Origin: Collinsella sp.
GTDB taxonomy: Bacteria > Actinomycetota > Coriobacteriia > Coriobacteriales > Coriobacteriaceae
DNA: 64,000 bases
Assembly: GCA_052281595.1 (NCBI GenBank)
Contig: DAWBRY010000004.1
Coordinates: forward strand, 67,854 to 131,853
Direction: 5' to 3'
The notes under the pieces: model-generated
Told to the model about the DNA's origin: nothing
The model's input: only the letters and a program-made list of their open reading frames with translations
Databases searched by the model: none
Part shown: positions 20,506 to 54,696 of the stretch, in pieces
Numbering within the stretch: position 1 is the first letter of the stretch
Layout of the letters: each line of letters begins with the position of its first letter
Made by a program: the position numbers and the translations under genes

Positions 20506-20517
20506 TGGAGGATTTCC

Positions 20518-22290: not shown

Positions 22291-23330
22291 CTCAATTCGA
22301 CTATTCAAGGAAGCTCAGCACCCTTATGTCGCCCGAAATCATGTCGTCTATCGGCGATATGAGGGAGCACCGCGGAAGACAAGCGCTTTACGAGGCGACG
22401 AGGCCGGACGTGCTGGAAAGCCTCGTCGAGGTCGCGAAAATACAGAGCACGAGCGCGTCAAACAAAATCGAGAATATCGCGACCTCGGACAAAAGGCTTC
22501 GCGACCTGATGGCCGAGAAGGCCGAGCCGAAGAACCGAGACGAGCGCGAGATAGCCGGATACAGGTTCGTGCTCGACACGATCCACGAAAGGCACGATGC
22601 CGTACCCGTGACACCCGGCGTGATCCTGCAGCTCCATCGCGACCTGTACAGGTTCACTGGCGACTCGTTCGCAGGAAGGTGGAAGGATTCCGACAACGTG
22701 ATCGCCGAGAGGTCGGCCAGCGGGGAGATGGTCGCAAGGTTCAGGCCCACGAGCGCCGCCGCGACTCCGGCGGCGGTAGACGCCATCTGCAGGGAATACC
22801 GAGCGCAAATCGAAGCCGGAACGTACGATCCCGTCCTCGTGTCGCTGGTGTTCGTGTTCGATTTCGTGAGCATCCACCCGTTCAACGACGGGAACGGGCG
22901 CATGAGCAGGCTGCTCACCCTGCTCCTCCTATACCGATGCGGATACACGGTCGGAAAATACGTATCGATCGAAAAGGAAATCGAAAGATCGAAGGAAACG
23001 TACTATGAGGCGCTCGGCGCAAGCTCCGCCGGGTGGCAGGACGGCGAGAACGACTACACCCCGTTCGTGACCTACATGCTCGGCGTGATGACGGCCTGCT
23101 ACAAGGAGCTTGACAGGAGATTCGCCATTGCAGCGGGCCCCAAAGGCGGCGAAGGCATGCTGCGCGCATATTTCGAGCAGCTCGTCGGCGCAGCGACGAA
23201 GCGGGACATCATGGATGCGAACCCGTCCATAAGCAAGCGAACGGTCGAGCGCGTCCTCAAGAAGCTCCAAGATGACGGGACCATCGAGAAGACGGGCTCG
23301 GCGAGGTCTACCGCATATCGCAAACGCTAG
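22287..23330 (+). CDS. fic: Fic/DOC-family protein (AMPylase-type).
   Basis: Canonical Fic motif HPFNDGNGRMSRLL. The ATG at 22287 follows the operator. The upstream 189 nt of the ORF are AT-rich repeats, not coding. Confidence 0.8.
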   Translation: MAQFDYSRKLSTLMSPEIMSSIGDMREHRGRQALYEATRPDVLESLVEVAKIQSTSASNKIENIATSDKRLRDLMAEKAEPKNRDEREIAGYRFVLDTIHERHDAVPVTPGVILQLHRDLYRFTGDSFAGRWKDSDNVIAERSASGEMVARFRPTSAAATPAAVDAICREYRAQIEAGTYDPVLVSLVFVFDFVSIHPFNDGNGRMSRLLTLLLLYRCGYTVGKYVSIEKEIERSKETYYEALGASSAGWQDGENDYTPFVTYMLGVMTACYKELDRRFAIAAGPKGGEGMLRAYFEQLVGAATKRDIMDANPSISKRTVERVLKKLQDDGTIEKTGSARSTAYRKR

Positions 23331-29632: not shown

Positions 29633-31693
29633 CTATCTCCTCCTCGTATGGTTTGTCGGTGTGTAGCCGTCGTCCCCGCTATCGTCGCGGGACGGTGCGT
29701 ATGCCCGCGCGTCCCTCGCGTTGCCCTTGTCCCTCTTCTCGAGCTCGAGCTCCTTGGCCTTCGGGTGCGAGTTCAGCAGCGCGTTGACGTCAGCGATTGT
29801 CGGTTCGCCGCCGAGGCTGTCGACGTCGGCCTGCGCGACGACGCCGGACTCCACGAGGTCTTCAAGGTATTTCATCTGCCTCTCGGTCGCCGGTCGCTGT
29901 AGATACGGCTCCCATCCGGGTTTCGCCTTCGTGACGTCCCCGTCTGGCACTGCAACAGTCACGGGGGCGTCCTGCGCCCATTCGCTTCCGGCCATGCCGT
30001 ACGCCGAGCGGGCGGCGCGCAAGTCCTCCTCGCGCTGCTCGCTTACGATCTTCGCCTTGGCGCGCTCGTGGTCGCGCTCGATCTGCTTGATCCTGTCCGG
30101 CGTCAGCGCGCCGGCAGCGATCGCCTGCGAATAGGCCTCCCTGTAGCGGACGTATTCGCGCGTCAGCTCGGCGCTCTGGTCGGCGGTGATGACCTTAGCG
30201 CCGCGCACGTTGCGCCCGGCGCCCTTCTGCCTCTCGCCGCGCCCGCGGACATCGGTGGGGCCGATCGGCATCTGCGAGGAAGCCAGGACATCGACCGCGG
30301 CGGAAAGGCGGCGCGAGCGGTTGCGGATGTCGCCCGCAGTGGAAGCGAGGTTAGCGGCGTCGGCCTTGACGCCCTCGCGGCGCGCGAGGAGGTCGGTATA
30401 GGTCGTATCGGTGAGCCCGATGCCGCGCTCGGCCATCCACTTGCGGATCGCCTCCATCTCGCGGAGCTCCACGGCGTTGTCCTCGCGCCATGCCGCCAGG
30501 ACGCCCGGGTCGGTCGGGCGGGCGGTCAGCTGCGCGGCGCAGGCCGTGTAGACCTCGACTTGGCGGATCGCCTCGGCGGTCTGCTCGGCCTCCAGCTTGA
30601 GCGCGTCAGCCCTCGCGTCGAGCGCGTCGACCTCGGCGGCAAGGCGCTTCGCGTCCGCCGCCATGTCCGCGTAGCATCGGTAGCCGCGCTCACGGATGAT
30701 GTTCACCGCGTCGGCGGCGGCAGCGAGGCGCGCGGCGGAGCGCTCGATCCTCTTCGACCGCTCGAGGTTGTTTGACGCCACCGCCTCGAACGTCATGGGC
30801 GGCAGGACGACGTCGGGGACTAGGTCCTCGGCGCACATCCTGACGTTCGGGCGCCGTCCTTCCAGTCGCACGGCAAGGCGCTCGCGCAACCCTTCGACCG
30901 TATAGGAGTCGTCCAGCTTGTATCCCTTTACGGGACGCCCTTTGCCCTCGGGCGGGTAGAACGTCAGCACGCCGCGGCGGTTGATGTTGATTCGGTATCC
31001 CTTTTCCGTCAGGCGCCTCTCGAGCGCGGGCCATGTCCGGCAGCCCTGAAGGGCAGCCTCGATATCGTCGTGCATCGCGTCGGTCCAGAGTCTCCTGCCG
31101 CTGTACCGGGCGCGGCGCTGGGCGTCCGTCTGATGCCTGCGCGGCGGTCGCGCCTCCTGCAATACGACCTCGCGCCGACGGTCGGGGCGCGGCGTTCTCG
31201 CGTACCAGGAACCGTCCTCGTCCCTCGAGAACTTGAAATTGTCGAAGGCGGCGTAGCCGTAGTCGCGGCAGATGCGCTGGAGCTCCATCGCGTCGGCCTG
31301 CACGTCATCGTCGTCGAGGTGGATCTTCCTGCCGTCGACGGGGTTGACGGAGTTGACGACGACGTGGGCATGCGGGATGCCGTTGTCGACGTGCGTCTCG
31401 ATCACCCACTGGTAGCCGCCGTAGCGCTCCCTCACCCAATCGTATGCCAATGTGTCGACCGCCTTGGCATCCAATCCGTCCTCGGGGTCGGGTGAGATCA
31501 CGAAATGGTAGTACTTGCGGCCCGTGTCCTTCTCGAACATCTGGCGCGTCGCGTCCATCTGCTCGTCCCAATCGGCGCTATCGAGATCGATCGAGCTCGA
31601 GCGGAACGTCATGGCACGGCCGTTGCGCGCAAGGTAGTCCTTGATCTGCCTACAGCCGCCGAACTTCCGGGCGAGCGTCTTGAGCATCGCCAT
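29633..31693 (-). CDS. MOB-family relaxase (MobA/VirD2-like nickase N-domain) with a long C-terminal extension.
   Basis: KYYHFVISPDPED… and GIPHAHVVVNSVNPVDGRKIH (relaxase histidine triad region). 686 aa. Start overlaps the mobC stop. Confidence 0.8.
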   Translation of the reverse strand: MAMLKTLARKFGGCRQIKDYLARNGRAMTFRSSSIDLDSADWDEQMDATRQMFEKDTGRKYYHFVISPDPEDGLDAKAVDTLAYDWVRERYGGYQWVIETHVDNGIPHAHVVVNSVNPVDGRKIHLDDDDVQADAMELQRICRDYGYAAFDNFKFSRDEDGSWYARTPRPDRRREVVLQEARPPRRHQTDAQRRARYSGRRLWTDAMHDDIEAALQGCRTWPALERRLTEKGYRININRRGVLTFYPPEGKGRPVKGYKLDDSYTVEGLRERLAVRLEGRRPNVRMCAEDLVPDVVLPPMTFEAVASNNLERSKRIERSAARLAAAADAVNIIRERGYRCYADMAADAKRLAAEVDALDARADALKLEAEQTAEAIRQVEVYTACAAQLTARPTDPGVLAAWREDNAVELREMEAIRKWMAERGIGLTDTTYTDLLARREGVKADAANLASTAGDIRNRSRRLSAAVDVLASSQMPIGPTDVRGRGERQKGAGRNVRGAKVITADQSAELTREYVRYREAYSQAIAAGALTPDRIKQIERDHERAKAKIVSEQREEDLRAARSAYGMAGSEWAQDAPVTVAVPDGDVTKAKPGWEPYLQRPATERQMKYLEDLVESGVVAQADVDSLGGEPTIADVNALLNSHPKAKELELEKRDKGNARDARAYAPSRDDSGDDGYTPTNHTRRR

Positions 31694-31694
31694 G

Positions 31695-32276
31695 CTAGCG
31701 CTCGACCTCCGATTGCTTCCTGAGCTGCACCATGAGGCCGCGCGTCTCCGCGAGCGCCTTGCAGTACGGGTCCTTCAGCGTCGCGACGAAGTTCTCGATC
31801 TGCTCAACGAGTTCGCGGCGGCGCTCGTGGCTCACGTCCGGCATGTCCTGTAAGAGCAGCAGCGTGTTCGCCGCGGCGGCGAGCTGGTTCAGGTTCACGC
31901 CCTGCTTGTTGAGTTCGTAGAAATACTTCTGGAAGAAATCGGGGTCGCCGATGTAGTACATGGGCGTGTGGAGTATTCGGTCGACCATGAAGCGCGACTG
32001 CGTCATGCCGGCTTTCCGCGCGCCCGTGCGTATAAAGGTGTCCTCGTAGGGCGTCACGTTGAAATGCTTCTGCACCGTGCGGTGCTCGGTATCGAGCAGC
32101 CCCTCCAGTGCCTCCTTCACGTCCACGCGCTCGCCGCCGGGCAGCTTCGCCAGCGTGAATTCATGCTTGCCGTAGACCGCCGTCTCGCGGATGAAGTTTG
32201 TCACGGTCGTGCCCGCAAGACGTGCCTTCGCCTTGAGCGCGCCGATCTCCTCCTCGGTCAACCTGATGCTGACCAT
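31695..32276 (-). CDS. mobC: MobC-like ribbon-helix-helix relaxosome accessory protein.
   Basis: MVSIRLTEEEIGALKAKARLAGTTVTNFIRETAV. The RHH fold sits immediately upstream of the relaxase. The longer ORF to 32453 is a GC-rich extension. Confidence 0.6.
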   Translation of the reverse strand: MVSIRLTEEEIGALKAKARLAGTTVTNFIRETAVYGKHEFTLAKLPGGERVDVKEALEGLLDTEHRTVQKHFNVTPYEDTFIRTGARKAGMTQSRFMVDRILHTPMYYIGDPDFFQKYFYELNKQGVNLNQLAAAANTLLLLQDMPDVSHERRRELVEQIENFVATLKDPYCKALAETRGLMVQLRKQSEVER

Positions 32277-38159: not shown

Positions 38160-38370
38160 CCTTGCCGCTGGTATGTATGTACCCAGCTGCGCACATGCGT
38201 AAACGCACAAGCACGTAAATGCGCACGTATGCGTCTGCGTAATTCGATAATTTGCCCAGCGGGCCGCCCGGACACCGGTCGGCAGGCCCCTGGCCTGCGA
38301 TTTCCATGGCCGGATGACCGGCGGGACCCCATCCGTCCCATAGGCAGCCGGGTGTGGGAAACGTGTGGAG
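38160..38370. repeat. Composite repeat, copy 2: the ATGCG-rich repeat (38160-38262) plus a conserved ~70-nt block (38293-38365), then a terminator hairpin.
   Basis: The 70-nt block (ttccatggccggatgaccggcgggaccccatccgtcccataggcagccgggtgtgggaaacgtgtgg) is ~92% identical to 39010-39075. It is followed by ccccgccgtctccggtggggc. Confidence 0.6.
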
Positions 38371-38443
38371 ACGGGCTACGGCATGAAAAAGCCCCGCCGT
38401 CTCCGGTGGGGCGATCACTTGAGTATGGGGTTGTACGGGTCGG

Positions 38444-38869
38444 CTAGAACGGGATGTCCTCGTCCGCAACCTCGACGGCGGGAGCCTCGGGGACCGCATA
38501 CTGCTGTCCACCATCAACCGCGGCAGCAGGAGACGCGGCAGGGCGGGAGTTCATGAACTCGATCTCGTCGACGATGACCTCGAGCTTGCTGCGCTTCTGG
38601 CCGTCGCGCTCCCAGGAGCTATAGCGCAGCTTGCCCTCGATCGCGACCTTGCTCCCCTTGGAGATATAGCGGCCGACAGCCTCGGCGCGGGTGCCGAACA
38701 TGGTACAGTCGATGTAATTGGGATAGTCCTCCCACTCGCCGGTCTGCGGGTTCTTTCGGCGATCGTTGACGGCGATGCCGAACGAGAGCACCTGGGTGCC
38801 GGCCGCGGTGACGCGGAGCTCGGGATCGCGGGTGAGGTTTCCGGTGATGTTGACTCGGTTGATGCTCAT
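38444..38869 (-). CDS. ssb: Single-stranded DNA-binding protein.
   Basis: MSINRVNITGNLTRDPELR…OB fold, Gly/Pro/Ala linker and C-terminal acidic tip …DEDIPF. Confidence 0.9.
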   Translation of the reverse strand: MSINRVNITGNLTRDPELRVTAAGTQVLSFGIAVNDRRKNPQTGEWEDYPNYIDCTMFGTRAEAVGRYISKGSKVAIEGKLRYSSWERDGQKRSKLEVIVDEIEFMNSRPAASPAAAVDGGQQYAVPEAPAVEVADEDIPF

Positions 38870-38911
38870 TGGCTTCTATCCTTTCGGTTCCGACGGGGGC
38901 CGATCCCCCGC

Positions 38912-39080
38912 CTTCGTCGCCATGTATGTACCCAGATGCTCAGATGCGTAAGCGCATAGATGTGCGTTTGTGCGGCTATGTATTGGGCTGGCACCGGAGT
39001 CCGGCGTTTTCCATGGCCGGATGACCGGAGGGACCCCATACGTCCCGTAGGCAGCCGGTTGTGGGAAACGCGTAGCGATT
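38912..39080. repeat. Composite repeat, copy 3 (ATGCG-rich repeat plus the conserved ~70-nt block), 5' of ssb.
   Basis: catgtatgtacccagatgctcagatgcgtaagcgcatagatgtgcg… then ttccatggccggatgaccggagggaccccatacgtcccgtaggcagccggttgtgggaaacgcgtagcg. Confidence 0.6.
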
Positions 39081-45768: not shown

Positions 45769-45954
45769 GTCAAACCCTTCGCGCGGATGCGTTCCGTCCC
45801 AGCTTTTTCTACCCCGTGCGCGGGAAGTCTTTCACTCGATTCGAGCCGGTGCAGGGGCATTTTTATCCGTCGAGTTTCGGTAGGGGCGTGTAAAGCGCGG
45901 CGGGGGCGGGTATCAAAGCTGCTGTGTATGCCAATTCCAATAAAGAGGTGGTCC

Positions 45955-47157
45955 ATGTCCGACCCGATCGCCGCGGCCGAAGCCGCCGGCAAAGCCCGCG
46001 ATATCGCCAACCGCTTCGAGACCGCCGTATTCCTCATCGCATACGGCATCGCCGAGAAGGACGGCCTCTACGAGGCCGACCCGCATAGGTATCCCTACAG
46101 CCAGGCATTCAGACACGGCATGAATATCCTCGCCGCGCTGTGCGCTGAGTGTTCCGACGATGCGGAAGAGCTGCTGCCGACGTTCAATGAGTCCGATTTC
46201 ATCAGGAACAGCGCAGCGTCAGACGTGCGCGAGTGGACGGCCCGGTGGCGCGACGAGTGCAGGGAAGCCGTCGAAGGGTGCCGGTCCATCGAGATCGGGC
46301 CCCTGGCGTCAGTAGACGGCGACTACTTCGCCGCGACGTCGGAATGCTACGAGGTGCTGCGCTTTGCGGAAAACGACCTCTTGGGCGGCCATCAGGAACG
46401 CAGGGTGTATGAATTCCTCCGAGCCGGCACCCAGGAGCAATACGTGTACGGACGCAGGATGCTCATCCGCCACCCGCTGCTCACCTGGAACGAATACGTC
46501 AGGATCAAGACGGGGCTCGCCCTGGGCGACCCCGACCCCCTCGACCAGGGCGAAGCCGACACCATCGACCCGGTGTGGTTGCAGGAATTCGTCTCCATGG
46601 CCTACGAACCCGTCCCGGGCGCCGCAAAAGTATGCCCGAATTGCGGCTGGACGATGACCATGCGAGGCAAGCAGCCCCACTGCTCATCGGCGACGTGCGC
46701 CAAGGCCGTCACAGGCGATTTCGACAAGCTGGACAGCGTCGCGCACGACGCCTTCCGCCTATCCCGCGGCGTCATGCACTACATCTCTTCCCCCGGAAAG
46801 CTCGAGCTGGCGATCGCCGAGGCCGCAGCGGGCCTCGGTCTGAAATACGAAATGTGGCCCCTCAAGGACACCTGCGACATCCTGATCCATCTGCCGGACG
46901 GCCGGCAGCTTGCCGTCGACGCCAAGGCATACGGCCGCGCCGAGCGGCTTGCCCGCGAGATAGAGGACGACACCGGCATCGCCCAGATGTGCGCGGACGA
47001 GGTGGCCTATGTCGTGCCGGACCAAGTCGAACGGGACCATCCCGGATATCGCGCGCTATGCAATGCCGTCCTGCGCGGCAAGACCGGCTATTCATGCGAA
47101 ACGCTGCGCAACTTCTCGAAACGACTCGATGCCGCCGCGAAGGGAGGCACGCGATGA
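45955..47157 (+). CDS. PD-(D/E)xK restriction-endonuclease-fold protein with an internal Zn ribbon. First gene of the candidate defence operon.
   Basis: RBS AAAGAGGTGG before ATG 45955. CPNCGWTMTMRGKQPHCSSATC (Zn ribbon). C-terminal …DILIHLPDGRQLAVDAKAY fits PD…D-x-K. Confidence 0.55.
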   Translation: MSDPIAAAEAAGKARDIANRFETAVFLIAYGIAEKDGLYEADPHRYPYSQAFRHGMNILAALCAECSDDAEELLPTFNESDFIRNSAASDVREWTARWRDECREAVEGCRSIEIGPLASVDGDYFAATSECYEVLRFAENDLLGGHQERRVYEFLRAGTQEQYVYGRRMLIRHPLLTWNEYVRIKTGLALGDPDPLDQGEADTIDPVWLQEFVSMAYEPVPGAAKVCPNCGWTMTMRGKQPHCSSATCAKAVTGDFDKLDSVAHDAFRLSRGVMHYISSPGKLELAIAEAAAGLGLKYEMWPLKDTCDILIHLPDGRQLAVDAKAYGRAERLAREIEDDTGIAQMCADEVAYVVPDQVERDHPGYRALCNAVLRGKTGYSCETLRNFSKRLDAAAKGGTR

Positions 47158-50100
47158 GCGAGCCGAATGATACAGCCCAGGAAGGCTTCGACCAGCTGAA
47201 GCGCAATCTCGAGGTGCGCTATCCCGAGGACAGCGACCTATCCCTCGACGAGTTCCTGAACGTGGAGTCGCTGCTCGCGCTCGCGGTACGCGTATGCGGT
47301 CCCGGCGCCGATCCCCGAAAGGCCGACAGGCTCCTATCGAACTACCAGCTCATCAGGCCCGAGACCATCGGCGCGGACGGCCACCTCATGCAGATGGCGC
47401 GCCGACACCTGTTCTCGCTGGCTTCATCTACGGCCTGGCGGCGACTGCTGGGCCTCTACGAGCGCGCGGAATATGAGCGGTACCGGTTCTTCGATATCGC
47501 CAACGGCGGAATGGCCCTGCGCGAGCACCCCTTTACCGGGATCGACCGCATGCCGATCTATATAGACCGCCTCCTCGGCGATGTCAAACCCTCCCATAAA
47601 AACGTGGTCGCGAGACCCAAAGGACGGTATTCCTACACATGCAAGCCCGAGGCGACCGGCGATACCACGGTAACCGGATCGATCCGTTGGGTGACCATAC
47701 CCGATGCCGTGCCGCCCCAAACGGGCAAGATTGACGATATCCCCCGCAAGAGCAGGCGCCCGCCCATCGATATCACCCTCGACGAGCTCATCTCGACCGC
47801 GGACGAAGTCGGGGAGAAGACCGGGAAGACCCACTACGCCGCCGTGCTCAGAAGGGTCAAGGACCAGGGGCTCCTCAAGCGGGCCCGCGGCGGCAGCACA
47901 TCCGTCGCTGACGGCCTGCGCCTCGATGAGGTCGTGAGCCTCGTCGGCCTCGTCGGCGCCGGCAAGTCCGTCCTCGCCAACATGCTCATCGTCTGCCTCG
48001 CGAAGCGCGGCCTGCGCGCGGCATCCCTGCTCAACTCGGTATCGGACGTGATGGAAAGCGTCGTCCTGCTTCGCGAGGCGGGAATCAGCGCCTCGCCCCT
48101 GGTGTCGCGCGGCAGGCGCATCGAACGGCTCGACGAGTTCTTCGACCACGATGACTCCATGCTCCTCGACCATTCCGCATCCAAATACCTGGAGACCGCC
48201 TGCATCATGGACGGGCTCTCCTCTTCCGATCCCGAGGCCTGCGGATACGGCAGCACGCCATGCCGCGGCCTCCGGTCCAAGAAGGGCGGCGCGAACTCAT
48301 GCCCGTACTGGAACGTGTGCCCATCGCAGGCCATGGCCCGCGAGTCCCTGACATCCGACGTCGTGGTCACGACTCCCACCGGCTTCGCCACCATGATCGT
48401 CGGAAGGGAGCGCAAGGCATTCTTCGAGGAGGCTCTTCAGCAGTTCGACGTCGTCCTGTTCGATGAGGCGGACCGCGTGCAGGCGCAGCTCGACGGCTGC
48501 TTCGCCCCGAGCATGAGCTTCCAGGAGCTCATCCGCAACGCCGCCGACCCGACAGCCGTAGCCATGAAGCGGCGCCCGGACGACAAGATGAGGGACTTCA
48601 ACGAGGAGCTTTTCTATGACCTGCGCCAGAAATCCGAGCCCGTCGCGAAGGCGCTGCTCAAATCCGTCAGGGACGACCGCGTGGCGAAATGGCGCATCGT
48701 CAAGGACGAGGCGTTCACGTCGCTCTCGCTTCTGAACGACCTCCTGGAGCAGGGCCTTCCCAAACAGGTTTACGAGGATGCCGACAAACTCATCAACCCC
48801 TATAGATTCGAGATTGCCAAGAAGAGCCTCGATGGCGGCGACGCGGCCCTCAACAAGCCCTCGCAGGCGGTCGCGACCTCCTGCGAGGGCATCGACGACG
48901 ACACCCACAGCTACTCGTTGAACGAATACCTCGCTGCATGCGGATGCTCGGAGCTTCCCGACGAGCTGCGGACCAGGTTCTCCTTCGCCCTCAAGGTCAT
49001 CCGGTTCGACTCGTACCTGCGCGAACTCGCCTCCGCGCAGGACCTCCTCAGCTTCAAGGACGATTCCGTCGACGAGCTGTACAACTTCCTCAAGTTCAGC
49101 TACACGCGCCAGCAGCACTATCTCCCCAACTCGCTGATCGGCAACATCTTCGGGATGAAGCTCGACGGCAACGACCTCAGGCTTTTCCGGCAGTTCGCCT
49201 TCGGGCGGGCCTTCATGTGCTCGCTGCCCTGGCTCGATACCGACCCCGCCGGGGCGGCGCTGGGGCCGCACGTGCTCCTGCTCTCCGGTTCGAGCTGGGA
49301 GCCCGGCTGCCTGCAATACCACGTGAACAGGCCGGTCGACTACCTCCTCGAGGCGGAGCCGTGGAAGGCGGCCAAGCTCTCCACCTCGACCGTGAGGGAC
49401 CTCGGCATCGAGCAGAACGTGTCCGGCAGCGCCGCCGAGATGCGTTCCGGCAACCTCGGCATCGTCCTATCGCAGACCATGGCCACGCTGAGGGACGAAC
49501 TCGACGCGGATGGCGCGGGAAAGGCCCTGGTCATCGTGAACAGCTACCGGGAGGCCGAGGACGCACGCGACCGCATCGAGCAAGAGCTCCGACGCAAGGG
49601 CCAGGCAATCAAGGTCGCGGCCCTGGTGCGCAACAACCACGACCACAGGGAGCACTTCGTGCCCCGGAGCGAAGTCTACAAGTTCTGCGACCATCCGGCC
49701 AAAGTGCTCGTGGCGCCGGCCATGGCCATCGAGCGCGGCTTCAATATCGTCGACCGCGGCGGCCATGCCGTGTTCACGAGCCTCATCTTCTCGGTGCGGC
49801 CGATGGGCACACCGCACGACCTCGGCGGGCGATACCGCAAGCTCAACGGCCTCATCGAAAGGGAGGTCGGCGACTACCCGGCCAATCCCGGGGAGTTCGC
49901 GACCGAGGTCAGGGCCTCCGCCTGGCGCACATGGAAGACCATGGAGCGGGACGAGAACCTTCCCATGGGCGCATGGAGGACCATGGGCAGGCAATTCCTC
50001 GTAGACGACGCGATCTCCACGCTCATGGTCACGATCATCCAGATATTCGGACGCCTGGCGAGGCTTGCCGATAAGGAGAGGCCCGCGCCGCATGTCTATT

Positions 50101-50276
50101 TCGCCGATGCGGCCTTCCGCGGCGGCGACGGGAAGCTCTCGTTCAGGACCCTGGAAGAGCTCGGCGCCTACATGGAACGCCTCATGCACGATAGCGACCA
50201 GCCGGAGGTCGCCAAAGCCCTCTACGGGCCGTTCTACGAGTCGTTCAGGAAAGGAATCGGAAATGTCGGACTCTAA
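47154..50276 (+). CDS. DinG/XPD-family Fe-S SF2 DNA helicase.
   Basis: Walker A GLVGAGKSV. Four-Cys Fe-S insert EACGYGSTPCRG…NSCPYWNVCPSQ. DEAD/H box VLFDEADRV. ATGA overlap with the upstream gene. Confidence 0.7.
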   Translation: MSEPNDTAQEGFDQLKRNLEVRYPEDSDLSLDEFLNVESLLALAVRVCGPGADPRKADRLLSNYQLIRPETIGADGHLMQMARRHLFSLASSTAWRRLLGLYERAEYERYRFFDIANGGMALREHPFTGIDRMPIYIDRLLGDVKPSHKNVVARPKGRYSYTCKPEATGDTTVTGSIRWVTIPDAVPPQTGKIDDIPRKSRRPPIDITLDELISTADEVGEKTGKTHYAAVLRRVKDQGLLKRARGGSTSVADGLRLDEVVSLVGLVGAGKSVLANMLIVCLAKRGLRAASLLNSVSDVMESVVLLREAGISASPLVSRGRRIERLDEFFDHDDSMLLDHSASKYLETACIMDGLSSSDPEACGYGSTPCRGLRSKKGGANSCPYWNVCPSQAMARESLTSDVVVTTPTGFATMIVGRERKAFFEEALQQFDVVLFDEADRVQAQLDGCFAPSMSFQELIRNAADPTAVAMKRRPDDKMRDFNEELFYDLRQKSEPVAKALLKSVRDDRVAKWRIVKDEAFTSLSLLNDLLEQGLPKQVYEDADKLINPYRFEIAKKSLDGGDAALNKPSQAVATSCEGIDDDTHSYSLNEYLAACGCSELPDELRTRFSFALKVIRFDSYLRELASAQDLLSFKDDSVDELYNFLKFSYTRQQHYLPNSLIGNIFGMKLDGNDLRLFRQFAFGRAFMCSLPWLDTDPAGAALGPHVLLLSGSSWEPGCLQYHVNRPVDYLLEAEPWKAAKLSTSTVRDLGIEQNVSGSAAEMRSGNLGIVLSQTMATLRDELDADGAGKALVIVNSYREAEDARDRIEQELRRKGQAIKVAALVRNNHDHREHFVPRSEVYKFCDHPAKVLVAPAMAIERGFNIVDRGGHAVFTSLIFSVRPMGTPHDLGGRYRKLNGLIEREVGDYPANPGEFATEVRASAWRTWKTMERDENLPMGAWRTMGRQFLVDDAISTLMVTIIQIFGRLARLADKERPAPHVYFADAAFRGGDGKLSFRTLEELGAYMERLMHDSDQPEVAKALYGPFYESFRKGIGNVGL

Positions 50277-52788
50277 GCTGCACCTCATGTCATTCGCACC
50301 CGTCCCCGACACCAAGACGACCGTGCACGTCGTCGGCTTGCCCGACAGCCTGCGCGACGCCCTCTTCACGCTCATGCCCCCGAGGAAAGAGGGCGGCTAC
50401 CTCAACACCAAAGTCCTCAAGGACGACCTGCGCTGCTGGCTCGACCGGGCCGTCGAGCTGAATCCCGTACGCCCCAACGTGCATACCGACAGCTGGCTTA
50501 TCGCCCTCGCCCCCATTGATCTCGCGAAGCTATGCAACGTCATCGCGGTCTGGATCTCCTCCCGCAAGGACATCGATACCCAATCCCCCGCCTACCGCAA
50601 GGTGATGGGGATGCTGCACCCCGAGACGTTCGAAGAGGCCGTGCGTGGCGAAGAGATCCGCCTGTTCAGCGGCGACGGCCGTCCCACGGGCAGGCTCACC
50701 TTCCCCGCATTCTCCGCGCAAGTCGCCGACGCCATCGCCGACATCCCCCTCGAACTCGCCAACGGCATGGTCGAGAACTTCAGCAGAGTCTCACGCGGAA
50801 ACGGAAACGTCTACGAGCTGATTTCCGATATCCACTGGCACAAGGAGGACCCGTGGGCGTTCGCCCTCAGATTCCACGTCGAGTCGCTGCCGGTCGGCCG
50901 CAAGGCAAGGCTCAACATGGATGTCGCCGTCCGCCGCTTCATCGGCAAGCCATGGCAGGACGACCCGTTCCTCAAACACGATGTCAACGCCTACGTCCGC
51001 ACGGAAGGCGGCACGCTCCGCGTCGTCCCCTACGGCTACGACAAACAGAAGCGCGACTTGGCCTGGGACCCCGCGGCCCTGGCGAACTACGAGTTCGCCA
51101 GCGGGACCGGATTGCCCGCAGTCCGCGAGTATCTTGAGGACATGGGCAGGTACGCCCGCGACGGCTCGCAGCCGCAGATCCTATCCCCCTACGCGATGAC
51201 CGCCTCCTGGGCATCGAAGCCTTCGGTCGCAAGCGGGGCATCCGTCATCGACAAGGCCATGTTCTTCGAGGCCGTCGCGGCTCGGCTCAAAGATATCGCG
51301 GAGCCCGTCGGTGCGCTCGACTCGCTTCAACTGACCCATCTCAAGGCGTCCATAGAGGAACCCAGGCAGGCGGATTGGGACAAGGACCCCGTCAGCGCAC
51401 GGGCGAGACAGGAGACCTGGGGCCGGGCCAACCGCGCCAGACTCGCCCGCTGCACCGGCAGGGACAGGGCCGTATTCCAGCTGATCGGCAACCAGGACGA
51501 TGCCCGACTCCTCGATATGGCAAGGGCCGAGATCTCCCGCTTTCTCGGTGGGGAGGGGGCCGTCGACGGCTTCGAGGTCGAGATCGATAACATCCCGGCG
51601 AACGACCTCCTGAACCGCATGGAGAATACCGGCGACAGCCAGGCGAAGATCCGCTGGCGCAAAGTCGCCGCCGCGCTTCCCGAGGCGACCGACCCGACCG
51701 CGTGCATAGTGGTCCTGCCGGGCGCCGAGAGCTACAAGCCCAAGGGCAAAGACGACGGCGGAGACCCCAAGCGCGCCCTGCGCATCGCGTTCGCGAAAAC
51801 CGGGCGCCTGACCCAATTCATCGAACCCGAGGACTCGAAGGACAGTCCCGAGATCCGCGCGCGCGTCGCCGTCCGCGACCTCATGCGCCAGCTCGGTTTC
51901 GTACCCGAACCGGCACGCAATTCGCGCGGCATCGATACCTCGATCCCGGCGATAGGGTTGAAGGTCTACAACTCCGGCAACGGCAAAGCGCGGGCGAGCT
52001 TCCCCTATTGCGTCCGACAGGACATGAGAAGCGGTGCCGTCACCGTGCACTGCCCCCTCCTACCTGACGGAAGCCTACCGTACTGGCGCGCCCTCATCGA
52101 GTTCGCCCGGCTGAGCGGTTCCGAGGGCTTTCCGGACTCCTGCAAGCGGGCGAACGGAATGGCCCTGAAGAGGATGCTCCACGGCATAGTCCGCGCCACC
52201 GGCGACAGGCCGGAACTCCTCCTCGTCAACTCCTACGGCCGCATCCGCCAGAGAGACTGGTGGCCCGGCATCAGCGACTCCGGCCTCGAGTCGGGACCTT
52301 TGAGCTACGGACCGAACGGTTATGAGGAGCCGCTTGGCCTCGCGGGCAGCAAGCTGCGCATCCTGCGTATACGCTCCGGTCTCAACGGCGAGGTCCCCGA
52401 CTGGTTCACGGACGAGGTGGCCGCGGGCGGCGCAGACGACGGCACCGTGCCGAACAGGCGCGACAAGCAGGGACTCTTCAAGATGGACGGCTACTTCCTC
52501 GCGTTGGCCCCGCGACCGGGCGACGCCCAGTACAAATGGTCCGCACGCGGATCGAAGTACGATTCGCCCACCGCGGCGTTCTGCGAGAAGACGATCAACG
52601 AGTACTGCCTTCTGTCGCCCGGTGGTGAGGCCGAGGCGCTTGCCAGCGTCAAATACGCCGAGGCCCTGCGCGGCTGCATGGTGCAGCTCTACAAGAACGA
52701 TATGAGAGTGAACCTTCCCGCCCCGCTCCATCTCGCCGAGCAGGTCGAGGAGTATATCTGGGACTGGGAGCTCACCGGCAGACGGTAG
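50263..52788 (+). CDS. Large (842-aa) uncharacterised protein, third gene of the operon. Candidate pPIWI-RE-like effector (hypothesis).
   Basis: Overlaps the helicase stop. No motif I can assign confidently from sequence alone. Confidence 0.5.
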   Translation: MSDSKLHLMSFAPVPDTKTTVHVVGLPDSLRDALFTLMPPRKEGGYLNTKVLKDDLRCWLDRAVELNPVRPNVHTDSWLIALAPIDLAKLCNVIAVWISSRKDIDTQSPAYRKVMGMLHPETFEEAVRGEEIRLFSGDGRPTGRLTFPAFSAQVADAIADIPLELANGMVENFSRVSRGNGNVYELISDIHWHKEDPWAFALRFHVESLPVGRKARLNMDVAVRRFIGKPWQDDPFLKHDVNAYVRTEGGTLRVVPYGYDKQKRDLAWDPAALANYEFASGTGLPAVREYLEDMGRYARDGSQPQILSPYAMTASWASKPSVASGASVIDKAMFFEAVAARLKDIAEPVGALDSLQLTHLKASIEEPRQADWDKDPVSARARQETWGRANRARLARCTGRDRAVFQLIGNQDDARLLDMARAEISRFLGGEGAVDGFEVEIDNIPANDLLNRMENTGDSQAKIRWRKVAAALPEATDPTACIVVLPGAESYKPKGKDDGGDPKRALRIAFAKTGRLTQFIEPEDSKDSPEIRARVAVRDLMRQLGFVPEPARNSRGIDTSIPAIGLKVYNSGNGKARASFPYCVRQDMRSGAVTVHCPLLPDGSLPYWRALIEFARLSGSEGFPDSCKRANGMALKRMLHGIVRATGDRPELLLVNSYGRIRQRDWWPGISDSGLESGPLSYGPNGYEEPLGLAGSKLRILRIRSGLNGEVPDWFTDEVAAGGADDGTVPNRRDKQGLFKMDGYFLALAPRPGDAQYKWSARGSKYDSPTAAFCEKTINEYCLLSPGGEAEALASVKYAEALRGCMVQLYKNDMRVNLPAPLHLAEQVEEYIWDWELTGRR

Positions 52789-52851
52789 CGATCCGCCCGC
52801 GAAAATGAAATGGGGAGGCCGGGAGATTCGGCCTTCCTATTTCCGTTGTCG

Positions 52852-54696
52852 CTACCGCTTATTCGCCTTGCGTGTATTTCGGGTGCGACCGGCGGACTCT
52901 TTCGCCGAGCCCTTCCGCTTCCCAGGACGAGAGTCGGACGGGCTCGGCTGACGACGAGCGGAGCCCAAGTCGAAGCCGGAGTTTTTCGCAATCCTCGCCT
53001 CAATCTCGGAGCGCCGGATGCCGAGCTCCGATGTGCGGACACGATAACCGCCCTCCTTGCGGACGACATAGAGCTCATGTGGGCCGCAGTCCCAATCGAG
53101 TACGTACCCGGCAAGGAGCATCTTGGCATCCAGATGGTCCTTGGACATCGCGCCGGAGAGCGCAGCCTTGAGGGCGAAGGTGGCCCGAGTCACGATATCC
53201 GCCCGGATCTTCTCCTCGAGGGTTCGAGCCGGCCTTTCGGTCCCCGGTTCAGGGGTACCTCCCTTGCTGTTCTCCAGGGCGCCTTCCAGGGCGGGAGGCG
53301 TGGGGGCGTCGGGGTCCCTGCCGTCCATGAGGTCTCGGATGTAGGCGCGAACCTGCGACTCGAAGCGGCGCGGGCACTCGATCTGGACCGGCTCCTCCAT
53401 CCTGCGCTCGAGGGAATCGTAGAACTCCACGACCTCGCGGCTGGCGATCAGGCGGTTCGGCTCGATCTTGGGGAACACGGTGAGGCCGGCGGCGGAGCGC
53501 ACGCGGGACAGGCCGACGTACAGCTGGCCCTCGGCGAAGACCTTCGTGTGGACGCAGCAGGCGTCGAACGTCAGGCCCTGCGACTTGTGGATGGTGATGG
53601 CGTAGGCGAGCTTGAGCGGGATCTGGGTATAGGTTCCCACGACGGCGGTCATGACCCTGTTGACGGGCCTGCCCTCATCGTCCATCTCGACGACGGCCTC
53701 GGACTTGTTGATCTCCCATCTGTGCCGCTCGATGCGGACCTTCTCGTCCGCCCCGTCGAACTTGACCGTCACGGCGTCCGCGGACGCGTCGGTGACGGTG
53801 CCCTGCGTGCCGTTGACGTAACCCTCCTGAGGGCTGTTCACGAGCGACATCACGCGGGCGCCGCGGCACAGGACGATCCTCTCCGGCGCCATCTTGTCGC
53901 CGTTTGACGCCGTGCCGGTCGCGGCGGCCGCGAACTCGACCTTCGGTGCGTCGAGCGCGTCGACGTTCTCGCGGTTGATCGAATCGGCGATGCGGTTGTT
54001 GGCGCACAGCACCAGCGTGTCCTTCGGCAAGTAGGCGCGGGAGCTCTTCGAGTGCGCGTTGAAGTAATCGAGGCACGACGCGTCGCCGACGCGGGCGCGG
54101 TTCAGGTTGTCGATGAAATCGGGGTCGGATTGGCGCACGACCGTCTTGAGGACGTGAGGCTCGAAATCGAAGCCGGTCCAGTACCTCGACTTGAAGCACC
54201 AGCCCTGGAGGTTTCCGGGATAGAACTTCATCAGCAGCGCGGAGTCGCGTTCGGTCACGACCGGCGGCAGCTGGAAGAAATCGCCGACGAGGACCACCTG
54301 CTTCGCGCCGTTGCGCGTCATGGACTGGGAGATCATCCCCATCACGTGGTCGAACAGGTCGATGCGGCACATCGAGATCTCGTCGATGATGATTACCTTC
54401 GCGGCGTCGAGCACCTTGCGGGACCCCTTGGGGCCATCGGGGGCGCAGACCCCCGGCGCGATTTTCAGCGTGCGGTGGATCGTCGAGCCGTCCGTGAGGT
54501 TCAGCGCGGCGATGCCGGTGGGCGCCAGGGCGAGGAAATCGACGTTGCGCGCCTTCAGATCCGATATGAAGGCGTTGAGCACGTAGCTCTTGCCCGTGCC
54601 GGCGTTGCCCGAGAGGGACACGTTCCTCCCGTCCCTCAGCGCGCTCAGCGCCTCGGCCTGTTCCGGTGTAAAGCGGTCACCGTCTGCCATTTCCAT
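52852..54696 (-). CDS. PIF1/RecD-family SF1 DNA helicase with a basic disordered C-terminal tail.
   Basis: SGNAGTGKSYVLNA (Walker A), IIIDEISMC (Walker B) and VLVGDFFQLPPV (motif III). 614 aa. Confidence 0.8.
   Translation of the reverse strand: MEMADGDRFTPEQAEALSALRDGRNVSLSGNAGTGKSYVLNAFISDLKARNVDFLALAPTGIAALNLTDGSTIHRTLKIAPGVCAPDGPKGSRKVLDAAKVIIIDEISMCRIDLFDHVMGMISQSMTRNGAKQVVLVGDFFQLPPVVTERDSALLMKFYPGNLQGWCFKSRYWTGFDFEPHVLKTVVRQSDPDFIDNLNRARVGDASCLDYFNAHSKSSRAYLPKDTLVLCANNRIADSINRENVDALDAPKVEFAAAATGTASNGDKMAPERIVLCRGARVMSLVNSPQEGYVNGTQGTVTDASADAVTVKFDGADEKVRIERHRWEINKSEAVVEMDDEGRPVNRVMTAVVGTYTQIPLKLAYAITIHKSQGLTFDACCVHTKVFAEGQLYVGLSRVRSAAGLTVFPKIEPNRLIASREVVEFYDSLERRMEEPVQIECPRRFESQVRAYIRDLMDGRDPDAPTPPALEGALENSKGGTPEPGTERPARTLEEKIRADIVTRATFALKAALSGAMSKDHLDAKMLLAGYVLDWDCGPHELYVVRKEGGYRVRTSELGIRRSEIEARIAKNSGFDLGSARRQPSPSDSRPGKRKGSAKESAGRTRNTRKANKR

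What the first reader, a model, noticed from the sequence alone, without database searches (positions are those of the whole stretch)
45955..52788. Three-gene candidate defence operon (nuclease, DinG/XPD Fe-S helicase, 842-aa protein) with pPIWI-RE-like architecture
Three co-oriented, overlapping genes sit between regulatory and lipoprotein genes and a convergent SF1 helicase:
- A PD-(D/E)xK nuclease with Zn ribbon (…LPDGRQLAVDAKAY…).
- A 1040-aa SF2 helicase with Walker A GLVGAGKS, DEAD box FDEADR, and a four-cysteine Fe-S insert (CGYGSTPCRG…CPYWNVCP) characteristic of DinG/XPD/Rad3.
- A large protein without motifs I can assign.

The combination of a restriction-fold nuclease, a DinG-type helicase and a large effector is the gene neighbourhood described for prokaryotic PIWI-RE modules. 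It also loosely resembles other helicase-nuclease defence systems. If gene 3 is not a PIWI-fold protein, this could be an undescribed system.
Basis: partly seen in the sequence, partly recalled or inferred. Interest (0 to 1): 0.75.

Follow-up and report, generated by a model that had tools for sequence, protein, structure and literature searches.

The report
Known pPIWI-RE operon on mobile element
These three genes are a complete copy of the already described bacterial pPIWI-RE module (restriction-type nuclease, DinG helicase, Argonaute-like protein whose own cutting site is dead), carried on a mobile element shared by human-gut Coriobacteriia; as a discovery it is ordinary, although I found no test of how the three-gene system works.

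Summary
Genes at 45955-47157 (400 aa), 47154-50276 (1040 aa) and 50263-52788 (841 aa) overlap by 4 and 14 nt.

- **Family match.** They hit every Pfam domain of the pPIWI-RE three-gene island: REase, Z, X, MID and RNaseH_pPIWI_RE, E 1e-18 to 4e-65. They also hit PADLOC's PprRE, PprDinG and PprPIWI models (to 9e-143).
- **Folds.** The gene 3 model matches only Argonaute/PIWI structures in its top 50 Foldseek hits. The gene 2 model matches XPD, DinG, CasDinG and DdmD.
- **Active sites.** Gene 3 keeps the family's MID-pocket residues and its R and E signature. It has K567 and Y658 where active relatives have the two catalytic Asp, so it is probably a non-cleaving sensor. The nuclease (PD...DAK, Zn ribbon) and the helicase (Walker A, DEAD, Fe-S cysteines) look intact.
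- **Conservation and context.** The triad keeps its order in distant relatives, next to type I R-M or AbiE. Here it sits on a relaxase-bearing element that is 92-99% identical across Collinsella, Gordonibacter and Eggerthella.

The likely mechanism is inferred, not shown: guide-dependent recognition recruits the helicase and nuclease to destroy foreign DNA, as in DdmDE.

Verdict: new member of a known kind, low to moderate interest.

The parts
45769..45954 (.). Divergent intergenic region upstream of g1; presumed promoter region of the operon.
   Evidence: It is 186 nt between the - strand gene ending at 45768 and the g1 start, with RBS AAAGAGG 6 nt upstream of the ATG. The simple scan found no sigma-70 consensus, so the promoter is inferred, not shown.
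45955..47157 (+). Gene 1: pPIWI-RE-associated restriction-fold nuclease, 400 aa.
   Evidence: Pfam pPIWI_RE_REase at 9.7e-28 and PADLOC PprRE at 7e-25. The same 400-aa product is called on public contigs.
46306..46485 (+). g1 helical 'Y' domain (aa about 118-177); weak match.
   Evidence: Pfam pPIWI_RE_Y scores 17.8 bits, below the 26.7-bit cut-off (E 0.0046); PADLOC gives 6e-4. The domain is detected outright in the orthologue of locus L017.
46633..46698 (+). g1 zinc ribbon, CPNC-x12-C-x5-C (aa 227-248).
   Evidence: Located. All four Cys are conserved in orthologues at 55-67% identity.
46795..47148 (+). g1 REase domain (aa 281-398), with E284/E289, D315 and D322-A-K324, a PD-(D/E)xK pattern.
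   Evidence: Pfam match to aa 281-398. The stretches LE-A-A and DGR--AVDAKAYG-AERLA-EI-DD are conserved in the orthologues, and the P of the PD is not.
47154..50276 (+). Gene 2: DinG/XPD-type SF2 helicase, 1040 aa.
   Evidence: PADLOC PprDinG at 9.6e-94 and typeIV_DinG at 4e-9. The AF2 model (pLDDT 74, pTM 0.71) has top PDB hits XPD, F. magna DinG, CasDinG and DdmD, E 2e-10 to 1e-7.
47232..47714 (+). g2 N-terminal helical 'Z' domain (aa 27-187).
   Evidence: Pfam pPIWI_RE_Z at 3.9e-35.
47946..47969 (+). g2 Walker A, GLVGAGKS (aa 265-272).
   Evidence: Located. V264, G265, V267, G268, G270 and K271 are invariant in 20 homologues down to 34% identity; S272 is nearly invariant.
48192..48326 (+). 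g2 cysteine-rich (Fe-S type) insert between motifs I and II: C350, C362, C370, C383, C389.
   Evidence: C350, C370, C383 and C389 are invariant in 20 homologues. C362 is the majority residue and is conserved in both translated orthologues. Metal binding itself is inferred.
48459..48476 (+). g2 motif II, FDEADR (aa 436-441).
   Evidence: D437, E438, D440 and R441 are invariant.
50263..52788 (+). Gene 3: pPIWI-RE (Argonaute-like) protein, 841 aa; predicted catalytically inactive.
50290..51459 (+). g3 N-terminal 'X' region (aa 10-399), the counterpart of the N/PAZ half of long Argonautes.
   Evidence: Pfam pPIWI_RE_X at 4.2e-65. Foldseek alignments to long Agos span about 900 columns.
51649..51912 (+). 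g3 MID domain (aa 463-550), with family-conserved D501-P-K503, R507, R515, Q518-F519, D539, R542-Q543.
   Evidence: Pfam MID_pPIWI_RE at 2.1e-18. These residues are 89-100% conserved in 112 relatives. Their role in binding the 5' end of a guide is inferred from Burroughs et al. (PMC3702460).
51952..52764 (+). g3 PIWI/RNase H domain (aa 564-834). It keeps the signature R702/R704 and E780, plus H823. K567 and Y658 occupy the two catalytic Asp positions.
   Evidence: Pfam RNaseH_pPIWI_RE at 1.1e-43. E780 is present in 112/112, R702 in 107/112 and R704 in 106/112 relatives. The few relatives with GMDV or AIDV in strand 1 and (A/S)DG after strand 4 place Asp in the K567 and Y658 columns.
52813..52837 (.). 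GC-rich hairpin in the 63-nt gap between g3 and the convergent PIF1 gene; a likely bidirectional terminator.
   Evidence: GGAGGCCGGGAGATTCGGCCTTCC followed by TATTTCC. This is a consensus match only.

Best explanation
**What it is.** This is a complete pPIWI-RE three-gene module, the 'RNA-dependent restriction system' predicted by Burroughs, Iyer and Aravind in 2013. PADLOC calls it 'argonaute type III'. Here it is carried as cargo on an integrated, relaxase-bearing mobile element of gut Coriobacteriia.

**Most likely mechanism (inferred, not shown).**
1. The Argonaute-like protein has an intact MID pocket but lacks both catalytic Asp. It therefore acts as a non-cleaving sensor that holds a short nucleic-acid guide by its 5' end and pairs it with foreign nucleic acid. 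The target is probably an RNA-DNA hybrid or an R-/D-loop on an actively transcribed or replicating invader.
2. Target binding recruits or licenses the DinG/XPD-type Fe-S helicase, which loads on the displaced strand and translocates 5'-3'.
3. The separate Zn-ribbon PD-(D/E)xK nuclease then cuts the DNA, so that the invading plasmid, ICE or phage is eliminated.

Functionally this is the same parts list as DdmDE (inactive pAgo plus a DinG-like helicase fused to a PD-(D/E)xK nuclease), split over three genes. On a mobile element the likely benefit is exclusion of rival elements as well as host protection.

Membership of the family is about 0.97 certain. The mechanism and the defence role are about 0.55.
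For: **Membership.**
- All five family-specific Pfam domains score above their gathering cut-offs; pPIWI_RE_Y does not.
- PADLOC hits PprRE, PprDinG and PprPIWI.
- The strict order REase, DinG, PIWI with overlapping termini is what PMC3702460 describes.
- The same triad occurs in Sphaerochaetaceae and Bacteroidales MAGs and in two further metagenome contigs.

**Folds.** g3 matches Argonautes. g2 matches XPD, DinG, CasDinG and DdmD.

**Sensor rather than cutter.**
- K567 and Y658 sit in the columns where the only 3 of 112 relatives with a full set have D and D. Those three also have E or D at the fourth position.
- All 12 members of this clade lack both Asp.
- The MID residues are conserved.

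**Effectors intact.**
- The nuclease and helicase motifs are conserved in orthologues at 34-76% identity.
- dN/dS is mostly 0.2-0.4.
- All three genes are intact in 6 of 8 genome copies.

**Defence context of relatives.** The triad lies within about 6 kb of type I R-M genes (HsdR, HsdS) and transposase fragments in L015, and directly next to AbiEi/AbiEii in L017.

**Heteroduplex preference.** PsPIWI-RE used RNA guides on DNA and DNA guides on RNA (PMC10991935).

**DdmDE precedent.** DdmE lacks DEDX and recruits DdmD, a DinG/XPD-like helicase with a PD-(D/E)xK nuclease (10.1101/2024.05.10.593530).
Against: - I found no functional test of any three-gene pPIWI-RE system in the searchable literature. 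The defence role rests on gene content, neighbourhoods and analogy.
- In this window the immediate neighbours are not defence genes. They are a lipoprotein, unknown proteins, a PIF1 helicase, and replication or partition genes.
- The only in vivo phenotype reported for a PIWI-RE protein is ciprofloxacin sensitivity and a cell-division effect, which points to replication (PMC10991935).
- The assignment of the catalytic columns rests on alignment within the family and a medium-quality model (pLDDT 70, lowest in the PIWI half). It does not rest on a direct structural superposition.
- The guide type, its source and the order of events are unknown.
Confidence: 0.6

Rival explanations
1. The parts are the same, but the role is housekeeping for the element or host rather than immunity. 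The PIWI-RE protein recognises R-loops or replication intermediates. Together with the DinG helicase and the nuclease it resolves them, for example by R-loop removal, decatenation or termination. This would help the mobile element or chromosome to replicate or transfer.
For: - The operon sits among replication and maintenance genes of the element: a convergent PIF1 helicase, a DnaC/IstB-like ATPase, an HTH_36 Rep-like protein, two SSBs, ParA, a relaxase and NikA.
- Deletion of piwi-re in P. stutzeri increased ciprofloxacin sensitivity and affected cell division (PMC10991935; PMC11555693).
- DinG proper acts on R-loops (PMC3702460).
Against: - The neighbours are not conserved. In L015 and L017 the same triad lies beside type I R-M or AbiE and ordinary metabolic genes, with no PIF1 or Rep genes. 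It therefore behaves as an autonomous, horizontally moving cassette, as defence systems do.
- A dedicated restriction-fold endonuclease as the first gene is hard to reconcile with a repair helper.
- Burroughs et al. describe the family's distribution as widespread but patchy.
Confidence: 0.15
2. It is an abortive-infection type system. Target recognition by the inactive PIWI-RE unleashes the nuclease, helped by the helicase, on all cellular DNA, which kills or arrests the host. This is how short pAgo (SPARDA) and long-B pAgo-nuclease systems work.
For: - Catalytically dead pAgos with associated nucleases usually act this way (PMC11333966; PMC13618286; PMC10810196 abstract).
- Several disrupted copies are on record, which would fit a costly or toxic system. 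They include two independent DinG frameshifts in 8 genomes, and in-frame deletion and truncation variants of g3.
Against: - A processive DinG/XPD helicase partner matches the DdmDE and Cas3 style of targeted degradation rather than collateral activation.
- Intact copies dominate. The full-length g3 cluster has 4671 member sequences, against 1-3 for each in-frame deletion variant and at most 242 for any shorter cluster.
- The frameshifts may be sequencing errors: one is a C5 to C6 homopolymer change, the other is in a MAG.
Confidence: 0.15
3. The operon is an inactive, decaying remnant carried passively by the element.
For: - The PIWI catalytic residues are lost.
- Some database variants carry deletions or frameshifts.
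Against: - All three ORFs are intact here and in 6 of 8 genomes.
- dN/dS is mostly 0.2-0.4.
- The nuclease, helicase and MID motifs are conserved across 34-76% identical orthologues.
- The operon is more conserved (98.8-99.8% nt) than its PIF1 neighbour (95.5-97.7%).
- Loss of DEDX is common in functional pAgos, for example DdmE.
Confidence: 0.03

Closest known systems
pPIWI-RE three-gene island (Burroughs, Iyer & Aravind 2013, Biol Direct 8:13; PADLOC 'argonaute type III')
   Same: - The domain set is the same: Y-ZnR-REase, Z-DinG with a Cys-rich insert, and X-MID-PIWI with the conserved R and E.
- The gene order is the same, and the termini overlap.
- No methylase is linked.
- The catalytic residues of the RNase H domain are lost, as in most family members.
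   Different: Nothing essential differs.
- The Y domain scores below the Pfam cut-off.
- The REase has no N-terminal HTH fusion.
- This copy sits on a relaxase-bearing integrated element that circulates at 92-99% nucleotide identity among Collinsella, Gordonibacter and Eggerthella. I did not find this host range or carrier discussed in the papers I read.
PsPIWI-RE of Pseudomonas stutzeri (Huang et al. 2022, PMC10991935), the only biochemically studied member I found
   Same: It belongs to the same family, defined by conserved R and E, with the same MID-PIWI architecture and an unusual N-terminal half.
   Different: - PsPIWI-RE has the catalytic D525 and D610 and cleaves targets: RNA-guided on DNA and DNA-guided on RNA.
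- The protein here has K and Y at the corresponding columns and is predicted not to cleave.
- PsPIWI-RE was too distant to appear among the 150 best relatives.
DdmDE plasmid-elimination system of Vibrio cholerae (DdmE pAgo plus DdmD helicase-nuclease)
   Same: - The functional parts list is the same: an Argonaute-like protein without DEDX, a DinG/XPD-like SF2 helicase, and a PD-(D/E)xK nuclease.
- The g2 model matches DdmD structures at E 3.5e-8 to 5e-5.
   Different: - It is not the same family. DdmD is one polypeptide with a C-terminal nuclease, and its INS domain has no Fe-S cluster.
- Here the nuclease is a separate first gene with a Zn ribbon, and the helicase keeps four invariant Cys.
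- DdmE belongs to a 'long-C' pAgo clade. g3 hits only pPIWI-RE models, and DdmE was not among its top structural hits.
Type IV CRISPR-Cas with CasDinG; classical long pAgos
   Same: - The helicase fold resembles CasDinG (PADLOC typeIV_DinG at 4e-9).
- The overall Argonaute fold resembles long pAgos.
   Different: - There are no Cas genes, no CRISPR array and no other tandem array nearby.
- There is no Pfam Piwi or PAZ hit.
- Sequence profiles of the family find no solved Argonaute.

Membership tests
pPIWI-RE three-gene system | A PIWI protein with the family-specific X, MID and RNase H (PIWI) domains | tested here: met
   PF13111 at 4.2e-65, PF18157 at 2.1e-18 and PF13032 at 1.1e-43, all above their gathering scores. 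PADLOC PprPIWI at 8.6e-143.
pPIWI-RE three-gene system | The conserved Arg and Glu ('RE') in the PIWI beta-sheet extension | tested here: met
   R702 (107/112), R704 (106/112) and E780 (112/112) in an alignment of 112 relatives. R to E spacing is 76-78 residues here, against 79 in PsPIWI-RE (R639, E718). Which of the two Arg is the signature residue was not resolved.
pPIWI-RE three-gene system | MID-domain conservation consistent with anchoring the 5' end of a guide | tested here: met
   D501, P502, K503, R507, R515, Q518, F519, D539, R542 and Q543 are 89-100% conserved, and all are present here. Actual guide binding was not testable.
pPIWI-RE three-gene system | The first gene encodes a restriction-endonuclease-fold protein with a Zn ribbon | tested here: met
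   PF18154 at 9.7e-28. CPNC...C...C and the D...DAK motif are conserved in orthologues.
pPIWI-RE three-gene system | A helical Y domain with a conserved Arg, N-terminal to the Zn ribbon | tested here: inconclusive
   PF18156 scores 17.8 bits, below the 26.7-bit cut-off. The orthologue in L017 hits it.
pPIWI-RE three-gene system | The second gene encodes a DinG-clade SF2 helicase with a Cys-rich Fe-S region after strand 2, a large helical insert and an N-terminal Z domain | tested here: met
   - PF18155 at 3.9e-35 and PprDinG at 9.6e-94.
- Four invariant Cys lie between Walker A (aa 265-272) and DEAD (aa 437-440).
- A helical region spans aa 456-655 in the model.
- Top fold hits are XPD and DinG.
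pPIWI-RE three-gene system | Strict order REase, DinG, PIWI with overlapping or abutting termini | tested here: met
   Overlaps of 4 nt and 14 nt. The order is the same in L010, L011, L013, L015 and L017.
pPIWI-RE three-gene system | No linked DNA methylase | tested here: met
   No methyltransferase domain is recorded in the called genes within 10 kb on either side, and none appeared in my Pfam scans of window ORFs.
pPIWI-RE three-gene system | An RNase H catalytic set (DEDX). This is optional: it is retained only in a subset of the family. | tested here: not met
   K567 and Y658 occupy the two Asp columns. Only 3 of 112 relatives have D and D there. This places the protein in the inactive majority and does not exclude membership.
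pPIWI-RE three-gene system | Restriction of invading DNA (the predicted function) | not testable with these tools
   I found no experimental test of the triad in the literature searches.
DdmDE | DdmD: a single polypeptide with an N-terminal DinG/XPD-like helicase lacking an Fe-S cluster and a C-terminal PD-(D/E)xK nuclease | tested here: not met
   - The helicase fold is similar (DdmD at E 3.5e-8).
- The nuclease is a separate upstream gene, and the helicase keeps invariant Cys.
- DdmD features are taken from 10.1101/2024.05.10.593530.
DdmDE | DdmE: a long-C clade pAgo without DEDX | tested here: inconclusive
   g3 also lacks the catalytic Asp residues. It matches pPIWI-RE models only, and DdmE chains are absent from the listed top structural hits. 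I made no direct DdmE comparison.
Type IV CRISPR-Cas (CasDinG) | Cas effector genes and a CRISPR array next to the DinG helicase | tested here: not met
   No array or repeat family is present. No Cas domains are recorded among the neighbouring genes.

The most novel reading that the evidence does not exclude
pPIWI-RE triads with a dead PIWI may be a three-gene counterpart of DdmDE: guide-directed, helicase-driven eliminators of rival DNA. This copy would then be a weapon of one very widespread integrative mobile element of human-gut Coriobacteriia against competing plasmids or ICEs, rather than a host anti-phage system. No paper in the searchable library holds both 'DdmE' and 'PIWI-RE', so the link may not yet have been drawn explicitly.
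Probability: 0.35. Interest if true: 0.55.

Novelty: new member of a known kind. Interest (0 to 1): 0.27.

Why it matters
As a finding it mainly confirms an annotation that Pfam or PADLOC would give automatically. Its residual value has two parts.

First, the pPIWI-RE triad was predicted in 2013. In the literature I could search, it has still not been tested as a system. The only biochemistry is on one catalytically active, distantly related member.

Second, this copy is an attractive test case:
- It is intact and under purifying selection.
- Its PIWI active site is predicted to be dead, while its nuclease and Fe-S helicase look intact. This makes the division of labour (sensor, motor, cutter) directly testable.
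- It sits on an element that moves among common gut genera, so natural targets such as rival plasmids, ICEs or phages could be sought in metagenomes.

The parts-list match to DdmDE gives a concrete mechanistic hypothesis to test.

Tried and rejected
**Searches of solved structures.** Sequence and profile searches with g1, g2, the 12-sequence g3 alignment and the 107-sequence g3 alignment found nothing meaningful. By sequence, no structure of this family is in the PDB copy. I also could not obtain a residue-level alignment to a classical Argonaute this way.

**Mapping onto PsPIWI-RE.** I looked for PsPIWI-RE among the 198 retrieved proteins by its published residue numbers and spacings. None matched. 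The catalytic columns were therefore assigned from within-family motifs instead.

**Second word-index search.** Repeating the homologue search with the alignment returned the same 53 proteins.

**Plasmid and viral collections.**
- Megablast of 40-60 kb against plasmids found no match.
- tblastn of g3 against PLSDB plasmids found no match.
- The IMG/VR viral contig scan found no relative. Nothing therefore marks the carrier as a catalogued plasmid or phage.

**Rejected: CRISPR or guide-array association.** There are no arrays, Rfam hits or tRNAs.

**Rejected: PIF1 helicase as a fourth component.** It is absent from the other triad contexts.

**Rejected: the 1440-aa 'REase-DinG fusion' proteins as Rosetta-stone evidence.** They arise from a 1-nt frameshift in g1 that reads into the open upstream part of the g2 frame.

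**Carrier element.** PHROGs and Pfam gave nothing for most large ORFs of the element.

Full report
**1. Observation**

The region holds three co-oriented + strand genes with good ribosome-binding sites and overlapping ends.
- g1 is 45955-47157 (400 aa).
- g2 is 47154-50276 (1040 aa). Its start overlaps the g1 stop in ATGA.
- g3 is 50263-52788 (841 aa), with a 14-nt overlap with g2.

Public contigs that encode exactly the same g3 protein carry gene calls of 400, 1040 and 841 aa in the same arrangement.

The flanks are as described. Upstream lie an XRE-type HTH gene and a DUF5067 lipoprotein with a LAGC lipobox. Downstream lies a convergent PIF1-family SF1 helicase. A 63-nt gap between g3 and the helicase contains a GC-rich hairpin.

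**2. What the genes are**

Pfam gives a complete set of the family-specific domains of the pPIWI-RE three-gene island.
- g1 hits pPIWI_RE_REase (9.7e-28) and, below threshold, pPIWI_RE_Y.
- g2 hits pPIWI_RE_Z (3.9e-35).
- g3 hits pPIWI_RE_X (4.2e-65), MID_pPIWI_RE (2.1e-18) and RNaseH_pPIWI_RE (1.1e-43).

PADLOC's models agree: PprRE 7e-25, PprDinG 9.6e-94 and PprPIWI 8.6e-143. NCBIfam has no model for any of the three genes.

The family was defined by Burroughs, Iyer and Aravind (PMC3702460). Their description includes:
- a REase with a Zn ribbon and a helical domain as the first gene;
- a DinG-clade helicase with a Cys-rich region and a helical insert as the second;
- pPIWI-RE as the third;
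- strictly conserved gene order, overlapping termini and no methylase.

The locus matches this point for point. PADLOC's 'argonaute type III' corresponds to PIWI-RE systems (PMC11333966).

**3.

An AlphaFold2 model of g3, built from 12 homologues, has pLDDT 70 and is weakest in the C-terminal half. It was searched against the PDB.
- All 50 best Foldseek matches are Argonaute or PIWI proteins, at E 9e-11 to 4e-7, with alignments of about 900 columns.

A model of g2, built from 20 homologues, has pLDDT 74 and pTM 0.71.
- Its best matches are archaeal XPD, Finegoldia DinG, CRISPR-associated DinG and TFIIH XPD.
- From rank 15 it also matches DdmD, the helicase-nuclease of DdmDE (E 3.5e-8).

By sequence, no solved structure of any of the three proteins exists in the PDB copy.

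**4. Active sites**

A scan of 1.84 billion cluster representatives found 575 relatives of g3 at E up to 1e-3. I aligned 111 near full-length relatives with g3.

Family-wide conserved positions are all present here:
- in the MID domain: D501, P502, K503, R507, R515, Q518, F519, D539, R542 and Q543;
- in the PIWI domain: R662, R702, R704, E710, E780 (112/112), H823, E830 and Y831.

R702 or R704 together with E780 are the eponymous R and E. Their spacing of 76-78 residues compares with 79 in PsPIWI-RE.

The two catalytic Asp residues are missing.
- A few relatives show the classical strand-1 motif (GMDV, AIDV), and 27 of 112 show (A/S)DG after strand 4.
- In those columns g3 has K567 and Y658.
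- In the model, K567 lies in strand 563-573 and Y658 lies just after strand 651-656. These are the places Burroughs et al. give for the first two catalytic residues.
- Only 3 of 112 relatives have Asp at both columns. Those three also have E or D at the column of E826, the position I take, from the PAPxYYAH motif of eukaryotic Argonautes as I recall it, to be the fourth catalytic residue.
- All 12 members of the g3 clade lack both Asp.

g3 is therefore predicted to bind but not cut, as in most of the family.

By contrast, the nuclease and helicase look functional.
- The g1 Zn-ribbon cysteines and its E...D...DAK motif are conserved in orthologues at 55-67% identity.
- In g2, Walker A, DEAD and Cys350, Cys370, Cys383 and Cys389 are invariant in 20 homologues down to 34% identity. 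Cys362 is the majority residue and is conserved in both translated orthologues.
- The Cys cluster lies between motifs I and II.

**5. Conservation and context**

The triad is syntenic in several distant settings:
- a Sphaerochaetaceae MAG (g1 68%, g2 73%, g3 64% identity);
- a Bacteroidales MAG (55%, 56%, 49%);
- two metagenome contigs, where it lies within about 6 kb of type I R-M genes and transposase fragments (L015) or directly next to AbiEi/AbiEii (L017).

The neighbours differ each time, so the three genes move as a self-contained cassette. The PIF1 helicase is not part of it.

In this window the cassette lies in a mobile element. The element's genes include:
- a MobA/VirD2 relaxase (29633-31774, - strand) and a NikA-like accessory protein;
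- ParA and two SSBs;
- a DnaC/IstB-like ATPase and an HTH_36 Rep-like protein;
- PIF1, AbiEii and a Fic protein.

The locus with about 10 kb on each side is 92-99.5% identical at the nucleotide level in genomes or MAGs of Collinsella, Gordonibacter, Eggerthella and an uncultured Coriobacteriaceae bacterium. Two divergent patches fall to about 85%. In Gordonibacter sp. 28C it lies in the middle of a 372-kb contig, so it is integrated. The 90% cluster of g3 holds 4671 member sequences.

Among five of these genome copies:
- dN/dS is mostly 0.2-0.4 for all three genes, on few substitutions;
- the operon (98.8-99.8% nt) is better conserved than the adjacent PIF1 gene (95.5-97.7%).

All three genes are intact in six of the eight genome copies. 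Two have a frameshift in g2, one of them in a C5 run, which may be an error.

**6. Mechanism**

*What is shown.*
- Family membership and the folds.
- Which catalytic motifs are present or absent.
- Synteny, mobility and purifying selection.

*What is inferred.*
- g3, with a guide anchored in the MID pocket, recognises complementary foreign nucleic acid.
- Burroughs et al. proposed RNA-DNA hybrids or R-loops as the target. This fits the finding that PsPIWI-RE works only on RNA/DNA heteroduplex combinations.
- Recognition then recruits the DinG helicase and the REase, which cut the DNA.

*The experimentally supported precedent is DdmDE.* DdmE lacks DEDX, binds DNA guides, and hands the target over to DdmD. 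DdmD is a DinG/XPD-like 5'-3' helicase fused to a PD-(D/E)xK nuclease, and both of its activities are required (10.1101/2024.05.10.593530; PMC13618286).

The pPIWI-RE triad has the same three activities on three polypeptides. It also differs: the helicase keeps its Fe-S cysteines, and the nuclease carries a Zn ribbon. I therefore call it functionally analogous to DdmDE, not a member of that family.

*Rivals.*
- A replication or R-loop housekeeping role. This is supported by the local gene context and by the ciprofloxacin phenotype of the P. stutzeri mutant. It is weakened by the non-conserved neighbourhood.
- An abortive-infection mode.
- A decaying remnant, which is contradicted by the conservation data.

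**7. Novelty and verdict**

The kind of system has been known since 2013 and is in Pfam and PADLOC, so this is a new member, not a new variant. In the searchable literature I found no functional study of the three-gene system. The only biochemistry is on one catalytically active member. No paper in the searchable library mentions both DdmE and PIWI-RE.

Interest is low to moderate (0.27). The remaining value lies in using this intact, widespread, dead-PIWI copy to test the mechanism.

Noticed in passing
window 640-19546 (+ strand): There is a run of about 16 consecutive ORFs (only 4701-6323, among those I translated, has no such tail), nearly all acidic (pI 4.2-5.6).
- None of the 14 scanned against Pfam, and none of the 3 scanned against PHROGs, gave a hit. 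One of them, tested by tblastn, found nothing in PLSDB plasmids.
- They fall into several small paralogue groups.
- Nearly all of them end in a similar C-terminal tail of about 25 residues. Examples are ...P-x-x-(I/M)-AAAAKKAAGAKVSAGVDGGGKHI*, ...AAKAAATKMVSGETGGGKHI* and ...AAAKSATAEGDAGGKKL*.
- The tail is conserved at the protein level rather than the DNA level. It is absent from the relaxase and from the other genes of the element.

It looks like a shared C-terminal targeting or translocation signal on a battery of cargo proteins. They could be transferred anti-defence or effector proteins of the element. This is unexplained.
   Followed up: partly
window 1-64000; loci L001-L008: The whole window looks like one large mobile element (more than 64 kb), mostly made of proteins with no known family. 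It carries a relaxase, NikA, ParA, two SSBs, a DnaC-like ATPase, an HTH_36 Rep-like protein and PIF1. About 10 kb on each side of the operon is 92-99.5% identical across different families of gut Coriobacteriia (Collinsella, Gordonibacter/Eggerthella), apart from two patches at about 85%, which implies recent horizontal spread. No integrase, T4SS gene or att site was identified within the window.
   Followed up: partly
window 20494-23330 (+): A putative AbiEi-like regulator (20494-21057; only a weak GntR-type HTH hit) is followed by an AbiEii nucleotidyltransferase toxin (20846-22033; PADLOC 9e-95) and a Fic/DOC protein with a C-terminal HTH-like domain (22080-23330). This is a second defence or addiction locus on the same element.
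   Followed up: partly
g3, window 51277-51558 (aa 339-432); proteins P0003-P0015, P0026: Near-identical database variants of g3 carry at least eight different in-frame internal deletions within aa 160-522. One is a 745-aa form, seen in NCBI, ENA and Logan assemblies, that lacks aa 339-432. Its break points share the microhomology GGCCGTCG. Each of these variants is rare (1-3 member sequences), against 4671 for the full-length cluster.
   Followed up: partly
g2, window 47740 and 48691 (loci L003 and L008): Two of eight genome copies have a frameshift in the DinG gene. G. pamelaeae CCUG 55131 has C5 changed to C6. A Collinsella MAG has a small complex change. These may be real inactivation or sequencing errors. 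The 1440-aa 'REase-DinG fusion' proteins in the database (P0199-P0203) are likewise 1-nt frameshifts in g1 that read into the open upstream part of the g2 frame. They are not true domain fusions.
   Followed up: yes
window 38173-38371 and 38922-39078: Two copies of a non-coding module of about 160-200 nt flank the ssb gene (38444-38875, - strand). Each holds a 35-nt repeat and a 78-nt repeat, 88-89% identical between copies. Each copy lies upstream of a - strand gene. Folding as single-stranded DNA showed no significant structure (z 0.44 and -0.85). It is probably a repeated promoter or operator; this is unresolved.
   Followed up: partly
window 12001-14000: There is a local GC dip to 0.55, against about 0.62-0.69 elsewhere. 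It lies inside the array of tail-bearing ORFs, where two neighbouring genes (10964-11788 and 11819-13222) have nearly identical 3' ends.
   Followed up: no
window 52852-54696 (-): A convergent PIF1/RecD-like SF1 helicase (614 aa) has a long basic C-terminal extension. It is less conserved among copies of the element (95.5-97.7% nt) than the pPIWI-RE operon. It is absent from other pPIWI-RE neighbourhoods, so it is not part of the system.
   Followed up: yes
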